Assembly: GCF_009914755.1 (NCBI RefSeq)
Contig: NC_060943.1
DNA: 64,000 nucleotides
Strand: one strand, 5' to 3'
Origin: the human T2T-CHM13v2.0 reference genome, Homo sapiens
Made by a program: the position numbers and the translations under genes
Shown here: positions 7,270 through 53,421 of the stretch, one piece after another
Layout of the letters: each line of letters begins with the position of its first letter
Position numbering within the stretch: position 1 is the first letter of the stretch
The notes under the pieces: generated by a model
Told to the model about the DNA's origin: nothing
The model's input: the letters and a program-made list of their open reading frames with translations, nothing else
The model's database searches: none

Positions 7270-7440
7270 TAGAAAGAGCTCAACCACTGACTTTCCTCTT
7301 TTTGACCACATGACTCTTCCAGGTATAAAAGCCTGCCGTTGGTGGAAAAGGAAAAGGTGGTCCAGTTAGACAAGATGCCACCGGCTTCTGAAACCAGACA
7401 TCTTTGAAAACCCACCCATCTACCTGCAGGAAAAGGCAAG
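7270..7440 (+). promoter_or_regulatory. FFAR2-paralogous promoter and exon-1 module of unit 1 (E-box CACATG 7307, TATAAAA 7324, GC donor 7436)
   Basis: 7286-7334 aligns ungapped to 48925-48973 at 34/49. E-box-to-TATA offset is 17 nt in both. Donor is AAAG|GCAAGG. Confidence 0.8.
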
Positions 7441-8451
7441 GGACCTGACCTCGCCTGGGCTCAGGGAAGAGGTTGCTGGGATCATAACCCCAGGAAGAGA
7501 CGGGATGGAAGGAGAGCATGCAGGGAGCAGAGGACAGGCTACTCTCCAAGGAGGAGAGGGAAGAGGCCACAGAAATGGAAAAGGGGCCAGGACAAGTCAG
7601 TGGAGAGATGGTCAGGGCCTGGCGAGGAGGAGCAGGACAAAAGCGGTGGAGCTCAGCCCCGTGGCGGCAGGGCCACTCCCATTCATCTGGTCCTCTACTT
7701 CTGAAGTTCTCGAATGCAGAATGAGATGTACAGATGGGCCAGCAGGTGATATGCTATCTGTCATAGGTTAAGGCCTCATTATTTTATTCATTTTTAAACT
7801 TTTTTTTTTTTGAGACCGGGTCTTGTTCTGTCGCCCAGGCTGGTTTGCAGTGGTGCCACCATGGTTCACTGTAACCTTGAAGCCCCTGGGCTCAAGTGAT
7901 CCTCCTGCCTCAGCCTCCAGAGTAACGAGGACTACAGGTGCACACCGCCATGCCCAGCTAATTTCTTAACGTTTTGTAGAGAAAGGCTCTCACTGTGTTG
8001 CCCAGGCTGGTCTTGAACTCCTTGACTCAAGCAATCCTCCTGTCTTGGCTTCCCAAAGTGTTGGGATTACAGGTGTGAGCCACTGCTCCCAGCCACAAGT
8101 TTTATTTTAAATGTTTACCTTTCAATGATCACTTCGAGGAGATTTAAGCTTACTCTTTCTTTTTTTTTTTTTTCTTGAGATGGAGTCTTGCTGTGTCGTC
8201 CAGGCTGGAGTGCAGTGGTGCTATCTTGGCTCACTGCAACCTCTGCCTCCCAGGTTCAAGTGATTCTCCTACCTCAGCCTCCCGAGTAGCTGAGACTACA
8301 GGCATGTGCCACCACTCCCGACTAATTTTTGTATTTTTAGTAGAGTCGGGGTTTCACCATGTTAGCCAGGTTGGTCTCGAACTCCTGACCTAAAGTGATC
8401 TGCCTGCCTCAGCCTCCCAAAGTGCTGGGAGGCATGAGCCACCATGCCTGG

Positions 8452-9317
8452 CTCATTGTCTAGTTTTTACCAAGAAGACGATGAGATATGCCAGAGGGCT
8501 CCGTATCTGCTATGAGAACGTCCCCCAAGAGCAGCTGGCCGTGGTGCTGCAGCTGGAGCTGTGCTTGGAGCTCTTCTTCACCCCCATGGCGGTCACCACC
8601 TTCTGCCACTGGCACTTTGTGCAGATCATGCTCTCCTGGCCCCAAGTGGGGACCTGGAGGTGCTGAAGAGCCAAGAGACTGGCTGCCGTGACCCTCTTCA
8701 ACTTCCTGGTCTGCTTGGACCCTGTGCTTTGTCTCCCGTGGTGGGTTCCCCCAGTGGAAGAGTCAAATTGGTGGGCAGGCGCAGTGTTGTTCAGTGCTCT
8801 CGATGCTGCATTGACCCCTTGATTTTCTTTGTTTTTGTTTTTATTTTGTTTTGTTTTGTTTTTGAGATGGAGTCTCGCTCTGTCACCCAGGCTGGAGTGC
8901 AGTGGTGTGATCTTGGCTCACTGCAACCTCCGCCTCCTGGGTTCTCCTGCCTCAGCCTCCCGGGTAGCTGGGATTACAGGCACCCACCACCACACCCGGC
9001 TAATTTTTGTATTTTTAGTAGAGACGAGGTTTCAACCCCTACTCAGGCTGGTGTCAAACTCCTGACCGCAAGTGATCTGCCCACCTTGGCCTCCCAAAGT
9101 GTTGCAATTACAGGCGTGAGCCACCATGCCCAGCCTAACCCCTTGATTTTCTGTTTCTCTTCCTCCACCGTGCGCAAAGCCTTTGACAGAGGGCCACGGA
9201 GGTGGCAGCACGGCGGGGGTCTCACTGTCTGGGTGGTGGTGAAAGCTCTGGAGAGCCAGCTGCAGAGAGAAGATGTGGATCTTAGGGACGGCCAATGTCA
9301 CCTTCACAGGAGATTAG
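8452..9317 (+). pseudogene. FFAR2-like pseudogene, unit 1 (end of TM4 to C-terminus), Alu-interrupted
   Basis: Translates as [69 protein letters not shown] / [10 protein letters not shown] / [19 protein letters not shown] ... NVTFTGD*. FFAR2 has TCYENFTDNQLDVVLPVRLELCLVLFFIPMAVTIFCYWRFVWIMLSQPLVG...DPLLFYFSSSVVRRAFGRG...SDFTTE*. Stops at 8461 and 8664, frameshifts near 8716 and 8812, Alu at 8829-9135. Confidence 0.95.
8829..9135 (-). mobile_element. AluS-type element inserted into the TM7 DPxxF codons of pseudogene unit 1
   Basis: Full Alu with 17-bp TSD T(G/A)ACCCCTTGATTTTCT at 8812-8828 and 9136-9152. Confidence 0.95.
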
Positions 9318-10229
9318 AGGCGCCAGCTTGGGGTAACCTTTTGGGGAAGGAGGGCTCAAAAAGAGGAACAATGAAACAGAACTAAGGTGAGTTCTCCTGT
9401 GCCCAGTTTCAGAGGTCAAGGAGAGTAGTAGATAGCTCAAACCCAACTCAGCCATTGAGTGAGTGTTTTCATTTTGTTCCTTGGGGTCTATGATATTTTC
9501 TATTTTCTTTTCTTTCCTTTTGTTTTGGTTTGTTTGTTTGGTTGGTTGGTTGGTTGGTTTGTTTTAGAGACAGGGTTTCCCTCTGTCACCCAGGCTGGAA
9601 TGCAGTAGTGTGATCACATCACACTGCAGCTTCTAACTCATGGGTTCAAGCCATCCTCCTGCCTCAGCCTCCTGAGTAGCTGGGACTCCAGGTGCACGCC
9701 ACCATGGCCGGCTAATTGTTTATTTTTTATAGAGACAGGGTTTCACTATGTTGGCCAGGATGTTCAACAACTTCTGCCTTCAAGCGATCTTCCCTCCTGG
9801 GCTCCCCAAGTGCTGAGTTTACAAGCATCAGCCACCACACCCAGCCTATGACATTTTCTTCATTATGGCTGGTACTGCCTCATGGTAAGCCACAAGCCTT
9901 TTTATCTTGTAATATCAGAGTCTTGGAATTCTTTATCTTCCCTACTCTATATCTAGAAGACAGTAGCACTGACTTATCTGCTGCAGAGCTCTTAATTCTA
10001 TCCTTGGCCCCGATTCAGAAAAGGGGGTTCCTCATGCTGGATCTGAACAACCCAGCACAGGCAAGTCTGGGGAGCAAGGCAGGAGCCTGCATGTGGACTC
10101 AAAGGACCGGCACCCGAAACAAAGCAGTGGCTGGCACAGGTGGACAAACCAGGCAAGAAAAGCAACTGTCCTTCGGAGCAGAGTCCACGTGATGGGAAGA
10201 AACAGGTCATGATACTTTTGAGTGGTTAC

Positions 10230-51676: not shown

Positions 51677-51978
51677 GCCGGGTGTGGTGGCTCATGCCTA
51701 TAATCCCAGAACTTTGGGAGGCTGAGGCAGGTGGATCACTTGAGGTCGGGAGATTGAGAACATCCTGGTCAACATGGGAAAACCCTGTCTCTACTAAAAA
51801 TACAAAAAAATTAGCTGGGCATGGTGGCACATGCCTATAATCCCAGCTACTCTGGAGGCTGAGGCAGGAGAATCCTTGAACCCGGGAGTTGGAGGTTGCA
51901 GTGAGCTGAGATCACGCCACTGCACTCCAGCCTAGCGACAGAGCAAGACTCCATTTAAAAAAAAAAAAAAAAAAAAAA
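51677..51978 (+). mobile_element. Sense Alu in the FFAR2 3'UTR
   Basis: TSD AGAAGCACCT. Confidence 0.95.
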
Positions 51979-52480
51979 AGAAGCACCTTCAGGCTGGAGA
52001 AGCAGCGTAGCTAACACAAGTCCAGTCCTTGTGATGTGGCTGGTAGTTGGGGATGGCCAGGCTGAAGCAGAGAGTCCTAGAGAAATCTCGATACAAGCTT
52101 CAAAGCAACACCTAGACACTGCTCTAGCGGTTGATCCTGGAGATAAACCAACAAGAGAGAGATGGAAGAGAAATACTAAATGAGGTCAAAGAAGACTCAG
52201 AAAGGTTCTGAGCCTGGAGATGAGCAGGGAGGCCTCAGGGCTTAGACCTTTAATGATAGGGGTTTCCCTGCATTGGTTTGACCTGTTGCCTTTTTGATGT
52301 GCTCTGTTTGTTTTCATGTGTTGTCTTGTCTCCCCTGCTAAACTGGGAGCTGCCAGGGGTCTGGGTCTTATCTCCTTCCTCCATGGTACCCCACACAGGC
52401 CAGGATGTGGTTTGGTACCCAGCAATCAGAGATTGGCACTCCCTCATACAGGGGAAAGCAACCTGGTCTAGCAAATTGAA

Positions 52481-52486
52481 AATAAA
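52481..52486 (+). terminator. FFAR2: FFAR2 polyadenylation signal AATAAA (cleavage ~52500); the 3'UTR carries a sense Alu
   Basis: First canonical AATAAA I find after the stop codon, followed by GT/T-rich sequence. Confidence 0.7.
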
Positions 52487-53421
52487 GATGATAAAACTCT
52501 GAAGTGAATGTCCACAATTTTTGTAACACTGCTGCAAGCACAGGGAGGGCAAAAATAGGAGAGAGAACCAGATTCAGCAGCAAAGGGGAAAAGTGATGCA
52601 TCTGAAACCACAGAAACATCTTAAGATAAAGAGGTGGTGTGGGCAAAGGAAGTGAGAGCACTGACGGAATCGTCTTTCGAGGGATGAATAGAGAGTCCGG
52701 ACTTAGAAAGGATGCAGGGTGATTCCGATTCACAGTCATCTGTCTGCCACAGGGCCTTAAAACATGTCACCCTCCTGCTCAGAAACCTGCAGAGCTTTCC
52801 TATCATCAAAATGTTTCCTTGGCCAGTTGCAGGGGCTCATGACTGTAATCCCAGCACTTTGGGAGGCTGAGGTGGGAGGATCACTTGAGCCCAGGAGTTG
52901 GAGACCCACCTGGGCAACACAGTGAGACCCTGTCTCTCAATTTTAAAAATTTAATTTAAAAAGATGAGTCCGGCTGGGCACAGTGGCTCATGCCTGTAAT
53001 CCCAACAGTTTGGGAGGCCAAGGCGGGAGGATCGCCTGAGGTCAGAAGTTCTAGACCAGCCTGGCTAACATGGTAAAACCCCATCTCTACTAAAAAGACA
53101 AAAAAAATTAGCCGGGCATGGTGGTGCGTGCCTGTAATCCCAGCTACTGAGGAGGCTGAGGCAGGAGAATCACTTGAACCTGGGAGGCAGAGGTTGCAGT
53201 GAGCCGAGATTGCGCCACTGCACTCCAGCCTGGGCAACAGAGCGAGACTCTGTCTCCAAAAAAAAAAAAAAAAGTGCTTCCCCCAAGGAACTCATATTGT
53301 ACCATTCTTTTCCTTGCTTTGTCCTCTCTCTCCCCTTCCAGTTCTACCTGCCTAGCTCATTTTTCCACAATAAGGACTCCTAGACCATTCTCTCTAGTTA
53401 AATGACCTCCAGCCCCTAACC

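What the first reader, a model, noticed from the sequence alone, without database searches (positions are those of the whole stretch)
7270..52500. Hidden tandem array of decayed FFAR2 paralogues: four head-to-tail promoter-plus-gene units, only the last intact
Seen: three separate FFAR2-homologous coding remnants (8452-9317, ~22110-22400, ~35125-35450), all on the + strand. Each is preceded by a copy of the FFAR2 upstream module (TATA-position elements at 7324, 18211, 33432 vs 48963), spaced 11-16 kb apart. Units 2 and 3 both cover TM3/ICL2, so they are distinct genes and not one split gene. Retained promoters and intron-sized gaps indicate DNA-level tandem duplication, not retrocopies. Established: FFAR1/FFAR3/GPR42/FFAR2 form a tandem cluster. 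From memory, to be verified: extra FFAR2-like genes are reported in pig and chicken. Inference: an ancestral mammal had at least four FFAR2-type SCFA receptors here, lost at different times in the human lineage. Units 2 and 3 give no signal as whole ORFs and may be unannotated.
Basis: partly seen in the sequence, partly recalled or inferred. Interest (0 to 1): 0.92.

Follow-up and report, generated by a model that had tools for sequence, protein, structure and literature searches.

The report
Eroded array of FFAR2 gene copies
Upstream of the human short-chain fatty acid receptor gene FFAR2 lie the worn-down remains of several older copies of that gene, the clearest being the dead human version of a second FFAR2-type receptor that many other mammals still have.

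Summary
The core of the finding holds, but details are wrong and the evolutionary inference is too strong. Unit 1 (8469-9317) is a real FFAR2-type pseudogene (E 7e-25 protein, 5e-45 DNA). It has its own copy of the FFAR2 promoter, exon 1 and start of intron 1, and is transcribed as LINC01531 exon 2. It groups with a eutherian "FFAR2-like" clade that is intact in tarsier, galago, tree shrew, squirrel, pig and elephant. No anthropoid member is listed.

The experimentally defined FFAR2 core promoter recurs five times in the window, all on the + strand: TATA-like positions about 7324, 19055, 26292, 33432 and 48963. A sixth copy lies 22 kb before the window. Pairwise E-values run from 1e-6 to 5e-14, and the copies are single-copy genome-wide.

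The coding remnants of units 2 and 3 give nothing by tblastn or by protein profiles. They are nevertheless the two best non-gene matches to the first third of the FFAR2 coding DNA in 144 kb, and both lie downstream of promoter copies. Another 3' remnant sits at 40.5-40.9 kb. Only two eutherian clades are visible, so "four receptors in an ancestral mammal" is not shown.

The parts
6810..7740 (+). U1 promoter module. The core is 7218-7345 with TATAAAA at about 7324; an Alu is inserted at 6907-7201. It is homologous to the FFAR2 promoter, exon 1 and the start of intron 1. LINC01531 exon 2 starts at 7323.
   Evidence: nhmmer aligns 7273-7627 to 48912-49315 at E 1e-9. The region is single-copy genome-wide.
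8469..9317 (+). Unit 1 coding remnant: the FFAR2-like pseudogene, covering about aa 152-330. Lesions are loss of CDS nt 1 to about 447, an in-frame TGA at 8664-8666, frameshifting 1-bp deletions, and an Alu at 8819-9150 inside TM7.
17457..18495 (+). Upstream unit-boundary elements of unit 2: B at 17457-17566 and 18024-18314, and C at 18231-18495. LINC01531's last exon ends at 17573.
   Evidence: B matches 37934-38415 at E 2e-4 to 1e-3. C matches 32753-33067 at E 0.007. The B profile hits 17512-17565 at E 0.022.
18944..19070 (+). U2b promoter module, with a TGTAAAA TATA-like site at about 19055.
   Evidence: U1 to U2b gives E 5e-14 to 6e-11, and U2b to U3 gives 4e-11. It is single-copy genome-wide.
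22053..22357 (+). Unit 2 candidate coding remnant, aligning to FFAR2 CDS nt 1-330 at 62% identity over 295 columns. It may extend to 22564.
   Evidence: It is the best non-gene window in the glocal scan, at -11.0, which beats the scan maximum of 60 of 60 shuffled queries. The anchored test gives z 3.95. Protein methods are negative.
26181..26306 (+). No coding remnant was found downstream of it.
   Evidence: U1 7268-7635 aligns to 26232-26627 at E 7e-7. The anchored CDS test gives z 0.65. It is single-copy genome-wide.
30902..31144 (+). B element upstream of unit 3.
   Evidence: It matches 37876-38135 and 47275-47411, each at about E 4e-5.
32753..33840 (+). C element (32753-33067) and U3 promoter module (core 33330-33455, ATAAGAA at about 33432).
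   Evidence: U3 to U1 gives E 5e-9 to 1e-7, and U3 to U2b gives 4e-11 to 1e-6. It is single-copy genome-wide.
35057..35489 (+). Unit 3 candidate coding remnant, aligning to FFAR2 CDS nt 1-487. It overlaps the first exon of LOC101927522 on the opposite strand.
   Evidence: nhmmer gives E 0.011. The glocal score of -16.0 is reached by 5 of 60 shuffle maxima. The anchored test gives z 4.49. Spacing from the promoter copy is 1318 bp without the Alu, against 1172 bp in FFAR2. Protein methods are negative.
37852..38415 (+). B element. It would mark the start of a further unit (U4) whose promoter copy was not found.
   Evidence: There are weak matches to the 3' ends of FFAR3 and GPR42 at E about 0.007. 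It is single-copy genome-wide.
40513..40903 (+). U4 3' coding remnant covering TM7, the C-tail and the 3' flank.
   Evidence: The family DNA profile aligns aa 262-300 to 40597-40714 at E 1e-3. Unit 1 9154-9454 aligns to 40634-40903 at E 3e-5. The glocal score of -16.0 is reached by 1 of 60 shuffle maxima.
47221..47415 (+). B element upstream of FFAR2.
48846..49315 (+). FFAR2 promoter module, exon 1 and the start of intron 1. This is the reference copy, with TATAAAT at 48963 and the TSS at 48993.
   Evidence: The promoter was mapped experimentally in PMC4311239 (passages read).
50451..51443 (+). Intact FFAR2 coding sequence.

Best explanation
The interval between GPR42 and FFAR2 is the eroded remainder of a tandem, head-to-tail array of FFAR2-type gene units made by DNA-level duplication. 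In human only the last unit, FFAR2, is intact.

Unit 1 is the unitary pseudogene of a eutherian FFAR2-like paralogue that many mammals keep intact, including tarsier and galago. In the lineage leading to humans it lost its 5' coding half, acquired a stop codon, frameshifts and an Alu insertion, and survives as exon 2 of the lncRNA LINC01531.

Four further copies of the FFAR2 core promoter mark older dead units. They lie at 19.0, 26.3 and 33.4 kb in the window and at -22.1 kb before it. Two of them, units 2 and 3, are followed at roughly gene-like spacing by barely detectable remnants of the 5' coding region. A separate 3' coding remnant lies at 40.5-40.9 kb.

Shown: the homology of unit 1, of the promoter copies and of the 40.6 kb remnant. 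Inferred: that units 2 and 3 and the other promoter copies were once complete genes, and when they died.
For: Unit 1. It matches FFAR2 at E 7e-25 (protein) and 5e-45 (DNA). The nine best of 121 family proteins by summed tblastn score all belong to the FFAR2-like clade; galago scores 160.5 bits and human FFAR2 135.5, rank 14. Matches to the C-tail stretch 9216-9314 appear only for FFAR2-like-clade proteins among the rows shown. The ML tree nests unit 1 in the FFAR2-like clade (clade SH-aLRT 100; nested sets 96 and 99). At seven columns that separate six FFAR2 rows from six FFAR2-like rows, unit 1 has the FFAR2-like residue at five, the FFAR2 residue at one and neither at one (my count on alignment A3).

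DNA-level duplication. U1 7273-7627 aligns to 48912-49315, which spans the promoter, exon 1 and intron 1.

Promoter copies. Mutual nhmmer E-values are 5e-14 to 1e-6, all on the + strand. Model R1 finds an untrained sixth copy at E 3.5e-9. Each copy tested is single-copy in the genome at BLAST level. The core motif has 11 genome hits at two or fewer mismatches, three of them in this locus, against four for the reversed control. The module coincides with the mapped FFAR2 core and proximal promoter (PMC4311239, passages).

Units 2 and 3. They are the top two non-gene windows for FFAR2 CDS nt 1-330 in 144 kb on both strands, ranking just below FFAR1. The shuffle-maximum test gives 0 of 60 for unit 2 and 5 of 60 for unit 3. 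In the test anchored on promoter copies, both exceed all 142 control windows and 100 of 100 shuffles. FFAR2 queries score higher there than FFAR3 or FFAR1 queries. The signal persists with back-translated queries from 15 family members.

The 40.6 kb remnant. E 1e-3 with the family DNA profile and E 3e-5 against the unit 1 3' end.

Repeated flanking elements B and C lie in the same order relative to the promoter copies.
Against: - The AU test does not reject placing unit 1 with the FFAR2 clade (delta lnL 33.9, p 0.0825).
- Protein-level searches find nothing above noise at units 2 and 3, and an early tile-chain test was not above its null.
- The glocal alignments are only 59-62% identical, with 15-18 blocks.
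- One minus-strand window in the flank reaches -14.5, better than unit 3 and the 40.6 kb remnant. One back-translated query gave a background maximum of -14.5.
- I chose the "5' half" segment after seeing hints, having tried four segments.
- Unit 2's implied start lies about 730 bp further from its promoter copy than expected.
- No coding remnant was found after the 26.3 kb or -22.1 kb promoter copies.
- No third or fourth eutherian clade is seen among the listed proteins.
- Promoter copies are easier to detect than coding parts, which is unexpected under uniform neutral decay.
- I had no RepeatMasker or Dfam, so an uncharacterised low-copy repeat is not formally excluded.
Confidence: 0.75

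Rival explanations
1. Only unit 1 was ever a gene. The other promoter modules are duplications of a regulatory element alone (promoter or enhancer copies, possibly kept as lncRNA promoters or enhancers). The coding-like matches at 22.05, 35.06 and 40.5 kb are chance.
For: Protein-level methods are at noise for units 2 and 3. Two promoter copies have no coding remnant at all. A noise window reaches -14.5. The modules are better preserved than the supposed coding DNA. RefSeq lists lncRNA exons and enhancers at or next to U1, U3 and B38 (hub annotation).
Against: Units 2 and 3 are the top two non-gene windows in an unanchored scan, and both lie downstream of promoter copies on the same strand. 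In the anchored test they beat 142 of 142 controls. The 40.6 kb remnant is supported by two different queries. The B and C elements repeat in register with the promoter copies.
Confidence: 0.17
2. The repeated modules are copies of an uncharacterised low-copy interspersed repeat, for example an old LTR carrying a TATA box, that happens to have seeded the FFAR2 promoter. They would then not be products of tandem gene duplication.
For: The modules are short (120-500 bp) and carry a TATA-like box. I could not run RepeatMasker or Dfam. The genome tool warns that a missing match does not prove that a sequence is rare.
Against: All six copies lie in one 71 kb interval and on one strand. Each copy tested hits only itself genome-wide. 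The core motif is not enriched outside the locus: eight other hits against four for the control. U1's homology to FFAR2 runs on through exon 1 into the intron and is followed by coding sequence.
Confidence: 0.03
3. Unit 1 is a decayed duplicate of FFAR2 itself, specific to the primate or human lineage, and not the orthologue of the eutherian FFAR2-like gene.
For: The AU test does not reject grouping unit 1 with the FFAR2 clade (p 0.0825). Unit 1 has a long branch (0.99) and fills only 41% of the columns.
Against: Unit 1's best matches, its C-tail and five of seven diagnostic residues are FFAR2-like-type. The free tree is 33.9 lnL units better. DNA identity to FFAR2 is only 74% (K2P 0.32), which is too old for a recent duplicate. 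No other FFAR2-like locus exists in the human genome.
Confidence: 0.05

Closest known systems
FFAR3/GPR42 segmental duplication in the same 19q13 cluster (Puhl et al. 2015, PMC4531286; passages read)
   Same: Tandem, same-strand DNA-level duplication of an FFAR gene unit within the FFAR1-FFAR3-FFAR2 cluster.
   Different: GPR42 is young (primate-specific, a 12.5 kb unit, near-identical and still coding). The units described here are ancient: promoter cores are 42-65% identical and all units except FFAR2 are dead.
Eutherian genes annotated "free fatty acid receptor 2-like" (NCBI and UniProt names attached to the proteins)
   Same: Unit 1 groups with this clade by score ranking, tree and shared residues.
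   Different: Those genes have intact ORFs of about 308-359 aa. Unit 1 lacks about aa 1-150 and carries a stop, frameshifts and an Alu. The covered ligand-binding positions Arg180, His242 and Arg255 are not preserved (numbering from PMC4453067, passages; alignment).
Chicken FFAR2 expansion, 26 paralogues (Meslin et al. 2015, PMC4453067; passages read)
   Same: FFAR2-type genes multiply by tandem duplication.
   Different: The chicken copies are recent, mostly intact and expressed. The human array is old and eroded.
Human unitary GPCR pseudogenes transcribed as non-coding RNA (a general category, recalled and not tested here)
   Same: A gene lost in the human lineage, with intact orthologues elsewhere and no functional human copy.
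   Different: Here the relic keeps a recognisable copy of the parental promoter and sits in a larger decayed array.

Membership tests
Eutherian FFAR2-like orthogroup (unit 1) | Sequence closer to FFAR2-like proteins than to FFAR2 orthologues | tested here: met
   The nine best of 121 proteins by tblastn sum are all FFAR2-like clade. Unit 1 nests in the clade on the tree (SH-aLRT 100/99/96). Five of seven diagnostic columns carry the FFAR2-like state.
Eutherian FFAR2-like orthogroup (unit 1) | The alternative placement with the FFAR2 clade is statistically rejected | tested here: inconclusive
   AU test: delta lnL 33.9, p 0.0825.
Eutherian FFAR2-like orthogroup (unit 1) | Syntenic position of the intact gene in other species, between FFAR3 and FFAR2 | not testable with these tools
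   The protein tables show only that FFAR2 and FFAR2-like proteins share contigs in several species, for example Tupaia, Otolemur, Loxodonta and Orycteropus. No non-human mammalian genome is held.
Unitary pseudogene | Disabled in this genome, with no intact copy of the same orthogroup elsewhere in the genome | tested here: met
   Lesions are a stop at 8664-8666, the missing 5' half, an Alu and frameshifts. The whole-genome six-frame search finds only FFAR2, FFAR3, GPR42, FFAR1 and unit 1 as close relatives.
Unitary pseudogene | Intact orthologues in other species | tested here: met
   About 25-30 FFAR2-like proteins are listed, including Carlito and Otolemur.
Processed pseudogene (retrocopy) | Lacks the parental promoter and intron | tested here: not met
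   U1 aligns to the FFAR2 promoter, exon 1 and intron 1.
Tandem gene array (units 2, 3 and U4 as former genes) | Three or more same-strand units sharing non-coding unit sequence | tested here: met
   Five promoter copies in the window plus one upstream, all on the + strand, with B and C elements in register.
Tandem gene array (units 2, 3 and U4 as former genes) | Each unit carries recognisable coding sequence of the family | tested here: inconclusive
   DNA-level evidence: unit 2 is reached by 0 of 60 shuffle maxima, unit 3 by 5 of 60 and U4 by 1 of 60. Protein-level evidence is at noise. Nothing was found for U2c or U0.
Interspersed repeat / transposable element (promoter module) | Many dispersed copies in the genome, on either strand | tested here: not met
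   Only self hits. The motif count is near the control outside the locus. Dfam was not available.

The most novel reading that the evidence does not exclude
Stem eutherians carried an array of five or more FFAR2-type receptor genes. After the genes died, their core-promoter relics were kept by selection and now act as promoters or enhancers of LINC01531 and LOC101927522 and of FFAR2 itself. That would explain why the promoter copies outlast the coding DNA.
Probability: 0.2. Interest if true: 0.7.

Novelty: new member of a known kind. Interest (0 to 1): 0.5.

Why it matters
FFAR2 is a drug target and a central sensor of microbiota-derived short-chain fatty acids.

Many mammals used in nutrition and physiology research carry a second, apparently unstudied FFAR2-type receptor. 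Pig, cattle relatives, cat-family and other carnivores, and squirrels are examples. Humans have only its wreck, and no mouse or rat member appears among the rows listed. This bears on how results are carried over between species.

The finding also gives LINC01531 an origin as a transcribed unitary pseudogene driven by a copy of the FFAR2 promoter. It further suggests that several annotated enhancers and lncRNA exons in this interval descend from dead FFAR2 units.

I found no paper stating any of this in the searches. Those searches cover only the held open-access library, and I did not see the GENCODE pseudogene tracks.

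Tried and rejected
- Plain blastn self-comparison at E 1e-5 found only the unit 1 to FFAR2 pair. It was too insensitive for the other copies.
- The tile-diagonal chain statistic gave U2b 4.42 and unit 3 3.21, against a best minus-strand value of 3.35. 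This is not significant.
- The protein HMM on six-frame pieces and the frameshift-aware profile alignment put units 2 and 3 at noise. The best extra hit, 16793-16889 (aa 60-91, 23.9 bits), is at the edge of the null, whose maximum is 23.2.
- The first anchored alignment test had both ends free and was meaningless, so I discarded it.
- Pfam scans of the translated pieces returned nothing even for the true unit 1 pieces, so they are uninformative.
I searched fetched flanks instead and used DNA and pattern searches.
- A candidate further remnant at 58469-58793 scored -19.0. It is not above the shuffles and collapses with other family queries, so I rejected it.
- I did not determine Alu subfamilies or date the insertions.

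Full report
**What was checked first.** The annotated FFAR2 coding sequence (50451-51443) translates to an open 330-residue protein. Searching the window with it by tblastn gives, apart from itself, only two significant hits: 8508-8819 (aa 164-270, 55% identity, E 7e-25) and 9095-9217 (aa 255-295, E 1e-5). At DNA level, nhmmer aligns CDS nt 448-826 to 8472-8834 (E 5e-45) and nt 795-982 to 9127-9306 (E 5e-7). A marginal hit aligns nt 261-487 to 35266-35489 (E 0.011). With all filters off a further hit appears at 22146-22256, aligned to nt 56-183 (E 0.56). A six-frame search of the whole human genome, which the tools hold as G000, finds only FFAR2, GPR42, FFAR3, FFAR1 and unit 1 in this cluster.

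**Unit 1 is the human relic of a eutherian FFAR2-like gene.** A protein search returned 436 relatives, of which 120 are listed. They include a second eutherian group at about 63-72% identity to FFAR2 that sources name "free fatty acid receptor 2-like". When all 121 proteins were run against the window, the nine highest summed scores on unit 1 were all from that group: galago 160.5 bits, elephant 156.8, tarsier 151.4. Human FFAR2 scored 135.5 and ranked 14th. Among the rows shown, matches to the C-tail stretch 9216-9314 appear only for that group.

- A 63-row IQ-TREE tree separates a eutherian FFAR2 clade (31 rows) from an FFAR2-like clade (19 rows, SH-aLRT 100). Marsupial sequences fall outside both (support 94). 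Unit 1 nests inside the FFAR2-like clade (nested sets 96 and 99) on a long branch of 0.99.
- The AU test of the alternative, unit 1 with the FFAR2 clade, gives delta lnL 33.9 and p 0.0825. The alternative is disfavoured but not formally rejected.
- In alignment A3, unit 1 shares FFAR2-like states: W in "RWR", "TLFNF", "AVL", "SAL", "LIF" and "VRKAFD". By my count it has the FFAR2-like residue at five of seven strictly diagnostic columns, the FFAR2 residue at one and neither at one. The covered ligand-binding positions Arg180, His242 and Arg255 are not preserved (numbering from PMC4453067, passages).
- A second search with tarsier FFAR2-like lists about 25-30 members of this clade. They come from tarsier, galago, tree shrew, squirrels, pig, peccary, hippo, deer, cattle relatives, whales, carnivores, pangolin, moles, shrews, hedgehog, elephant, aardvark, tenrec and elephant shrew.
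- There is no anthropoid entry in that list, and no cluster between 82% and 100% identity to the tarsier protein. This fits loss after the tarsier split, but it rests on a capped list of predicted proteins.

**Lesions in unit 1.** Homology begins at about CDS nt 448, directly after an Alu (8147-8467). There is an in-frame TGA at 8664-8666, several 1-bp deletions, and an Alu at 8819-9150 in TM7. DNA identity to FFAR2 is 74% (K2P 0.32), with differences spread over all codon positions.

**The duplication was at DNA level.** The FFAR2 promoter region aligns to 7273-7623 (E 1e-6). With tiles, 7273-7627 aligns to 48912-49315 (E 1e-9). That stretch covers the promoter, exon 1 (48993-49115) and about 200 bp of intron 1. 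Ang et al. 2015 (PMC4311239, passages read) mapped three features:

- the TSS, 1459 bp upstream of the ATG;
- the core promoter, at -58 to -33, containing an essential XBP1 site;
- the proximal promoter, at -451 to -33.

The repeated module is therefore the experimentally defined FFAR2 promoter. In the copies the CACGTG core reads CACATG or CACATA or is lost, as expected from CpG decay. LINC01531 exon 2 (7323-9884 in the hub annotation) spans the U1 TATA box and the whole coding remnant.

Single-sequence nhmmer searches of the Alu-excised window gave these E-values, always on the + strand:

| Pair | E-value |
|---|---|
| U1 to 18944-19070 (U2b) | 5e-14 to 6e-11 |
| U1 to 33330-33455 (U3) | 5e-9 to 2e-7 |
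| U2b to U3 | 4e-11 to 1e-6 |
| U1 to 26232-26627 (U2c, new) | 7e-7 |

- A profile built from FFAR2 and U1 alone recovers U2b (9e-9) and U3 (2e-4).
- Core identities are 42-65%.
- A sequence-only model of the five copies finds no sixth copy in the window (next best 8.2 bits).
- In 80 kb of fetched flanks the same model finds one untrained copy, 4 kb downstream of GPR42 at window -22194..-22073 (E 3.5e-9). It matches U1 (2e-13) and the FFAR2 promoter (1e-11).
- There is no copy at the FFAR3, GPR42 or FFAR1 promoters.
- U1 is the hub of the similarity matrix. U2b and U3 match FFAR2 only weakly (about E 0.005-0.5) and U2c hardly at all (about 2-3 bits).

**The modules are not an interspersed repeat, as far as I can test.** Each module (7240-7640, 18740-19300, 26100-26700, 33250-33900) and element B (37840-38420) hits only itself in the 3.1 Gb genome at E of 1 or less. 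The 24-nt core motif has 11 genome matches at two or fewer mismatches. Three of these are U1, U2b and the upstream copy. The reversed control has four matches. The tool warns that a missing match does not prove rarity, and Dfam was not available.

**Other unit-scale homology.** Element B recurs on the + strand at 17457-17566 (plus 18024-18314), 30902-31144, 37852-38415 and 47221-47415, with E 4e-5 to 1e-3. A profile of three copies recovers the fourth at E 0.022. B lies about 1.5-2.5 kb upstream of the promoter copies at 19.0, 33.4 and 48.96 kb. Part of the 38 kb copy weakly matches the 3' ends of FFAR3 and GPR42 (E about 0.007). LINC01531's last exon ends at 17573, inside a B copy. Element C (18231-18495 to 32753-33067, E 0.007) sits between B and the promoter copy in units 2 and 3.

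**Coding remnants of units 2 and 3: negative results.**

- tblastn with 121 family proteins gives only noise-level clusters: 35258-35455 (24.6 bits, E 0.18) and 22367-22564 (23.1 bits, E 0.89).
- The family HMM on six-frame pieces scores under 1 bit at unit 2, and no unit 3 hit is among the 45 best.
- My frameshift-aware profile alignment scores 15.1 bits at each unit. The minus strand, the reversed profile and eight permuted profiles give tops of 18.6-23.2.
- A tile-diagonal chain test was not above its null.

**Coding remnants of units 2 and 3: positive results.**

- A DNA profile back-translated from the family ranks its hits in this order: FFAR2, unit 1, 40597-40714, then 22146-22179 (E 0.14), 22206-22311 (0.62) and 35364-35422 (1.1). 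All are on the + strand and come before the first minus-strand hit (3.4).
- I forced FFAR2 CDS nt 1-500 to align end to end into the window expected downstream of each promoter copy. This gives -33.5 for U2b and -33.0 for U3. The 100 dinucleotide shuffles give -52.8 ± 4.9 and -58.5 ± 5.7, and none of the 100 reaches the real score. The 142 control placements have a raw maximum of -44. U2c shows nothing (z 0.65) (a looser version is).
- An unanchored scan of CDS thirds over both strands puts 22053-22357 (-11.0) and 35057-35368 (-16.0) first and second among non-gene windows for nt 1-330.
- In the 144 kb span these two rank directly below FFAR1, which scores 8.0.
- Whole-scan maxima of 60 shuffled queries reach -11.0 in 0 cases and -16.0 in 5 cases.
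- FFAR2 queries score higher than FFAR3 or FFAR1 queries at both sites.
- The signal persists with back-translated queries from 15 family members: unit 2 scores -6 to -23.5 and unit 3 scores -13 to -23.5, against a background mean of about -47 and SD of about 10.

**Caveats on that evidence.** Identities are only 59-62%, with many gaps. One minus-strand flank window reaches -14.5. I chose the segment after seeing hints. Unit 3's spacing from its promoter copy (1318 bp without the Alu) is close to FFAR2's 1172 bp, but unit 2's is about 730 bp longer. I rate unit 2 and unit 3 as real coding relics at roughly 65-75%. Unit 2 aligns to TM1-TM2 (possibly on to about aa 182), not specifically to TM3/ICL2.

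40513-40903 aligns to the last third of the gene. The family DNA profile matches aa 262-300 at E 1e-3. Unit 1's own 3' end and flank, 9154-9454, match at E 3e-5. The glocal score is -16.0, reached by 1 of 60 shuffle maxima. It lies downstream of the B element at 37.9-38.4 kb. No promoter copy was found between them.

**Interpretation.** The interval is best read as a decayed head-to-tail array of FFAR2-type units. The visible protein phylogeny supports two eutherian genes, FFAR2 and FFAR2-like. The split is placed after the marsupial divergence with support 94, which is not decisive, and an older duplication followed by marsupial loss is not excluded. The additional units resemble U1 more than they resemble FFAR2's promoter. 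They have no intact counterparts among the listed proteins. They therefore either died before the eutherian radiation or were never complete genes.

**Literature.** The searches were FFAR2 with pseudogene (61 papers, 20 listed), LINC01531 (12), FFAR2 with duplication, paralogs and synteny (3), FFAR2L/FFAR2-like/GPR43-like/FFAR2B (9), "unitary pseudogene" with "free fatty acid receptor" (0), and FFAR2, FFAR3, phylogenetic, gene loss and mammals (6). None produced a description of a human FFAR2-like pseudogene or of this array. For these searches I saw listings and abstracts, and I read passages of PMC4531286, PMC4453067, PMC7344995, PMC7840215 and PMC4311239. Subscription literature, supplements and the GENCODE annotation were not seen.

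**Verdict.** This is a real and moderately interesting locus history. It comprises a transcribed unitary pseudogene of a second FFAR2-type receptor plus several older unit relics. It is of a familiar kind, since tandem GPCR arrays commonly decay in this way.

Noticed in passing
window 35053-35386 (minus strand) against 35057-35489 (plus strand): The first exon and TSS of the lncRNA LOC101927522 (hub annotation) lie antisense within the candidate unit 3 coding remnant. RefSeq enhancer 33627-34826 abuts the U3 promoter copy.
   Followed up: no
window 16793-16889 (+): A short open stretch resembles FFAR2 aa 60-91. It scores 27.3 bits by tblastn (E 0.026) and was hit by 19 of 121 queries, and 23.9 bits in the frameshift-aware profile alignment against a null maximum of 23.2. 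It is borderline. It lies 0.6 kb before the B element at 17457 and could be a relic of yet another unit.
   Followed up: partly
window 4492-4993 against 6276-6082: A low-copy inverted repeat (E 2e-29, about 85-92% identity) flanks Alus just upstream of LINC01531 exon 1 (6345-6419).
   Followed up: no
window 39886-39962 against 40268-40344: A 77 bp direct repeat (87% identity) flanks the Alu at 39957-40273. This is much longer than a usual target-site duplication. It lies just upstream of the 40.5 kb coding remnant.
   Followed up: no
window 27613-28013 against 28416-28799: A local direct duplication (E 6e-12; the 70 bp core is 88.6% identical) lies between Alus downstream of the 26.3 kb promoter copy.
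   Followed up: no
window 60627-60747, 57870-57992, 42407-42507, 23800-23883 (+) and 5946-6020 (-): A small family of roughly 80-120 bp similar segments on both strands (E 2e-4 to 0.04). It is probably an old interspersed repeat unrelated to the FFAR2 units.
   Followed up: no
flank, window coordinates -35944..-35245, minus strand (L016): Between FFAR3 and GPR42, one window scores -14.5 against the last third of the FFAR2 CDS on the opposite strand. It is either noise or an inverted relic. I used it as a caution on the noise level.
   Followed up: no
window 23419-23690 against 45063-44796 (inverted): A low-copy inverted match (E 2e-7) next to Alus, of unknown nature.
   Followed up: no
protein tree: Within the FFAR2-like clade, the pig, peccary and grey-whale sequences, together with one unnamed sequence (P0086) at the very base, branch as a basal ladder (supports 99, 99 and 93) instead of grouping with the other Laurasiatheria. 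This could be a rate artefact or hidden paralogy, meaning that different surviving units were kept in different orders.
   Followed up: no
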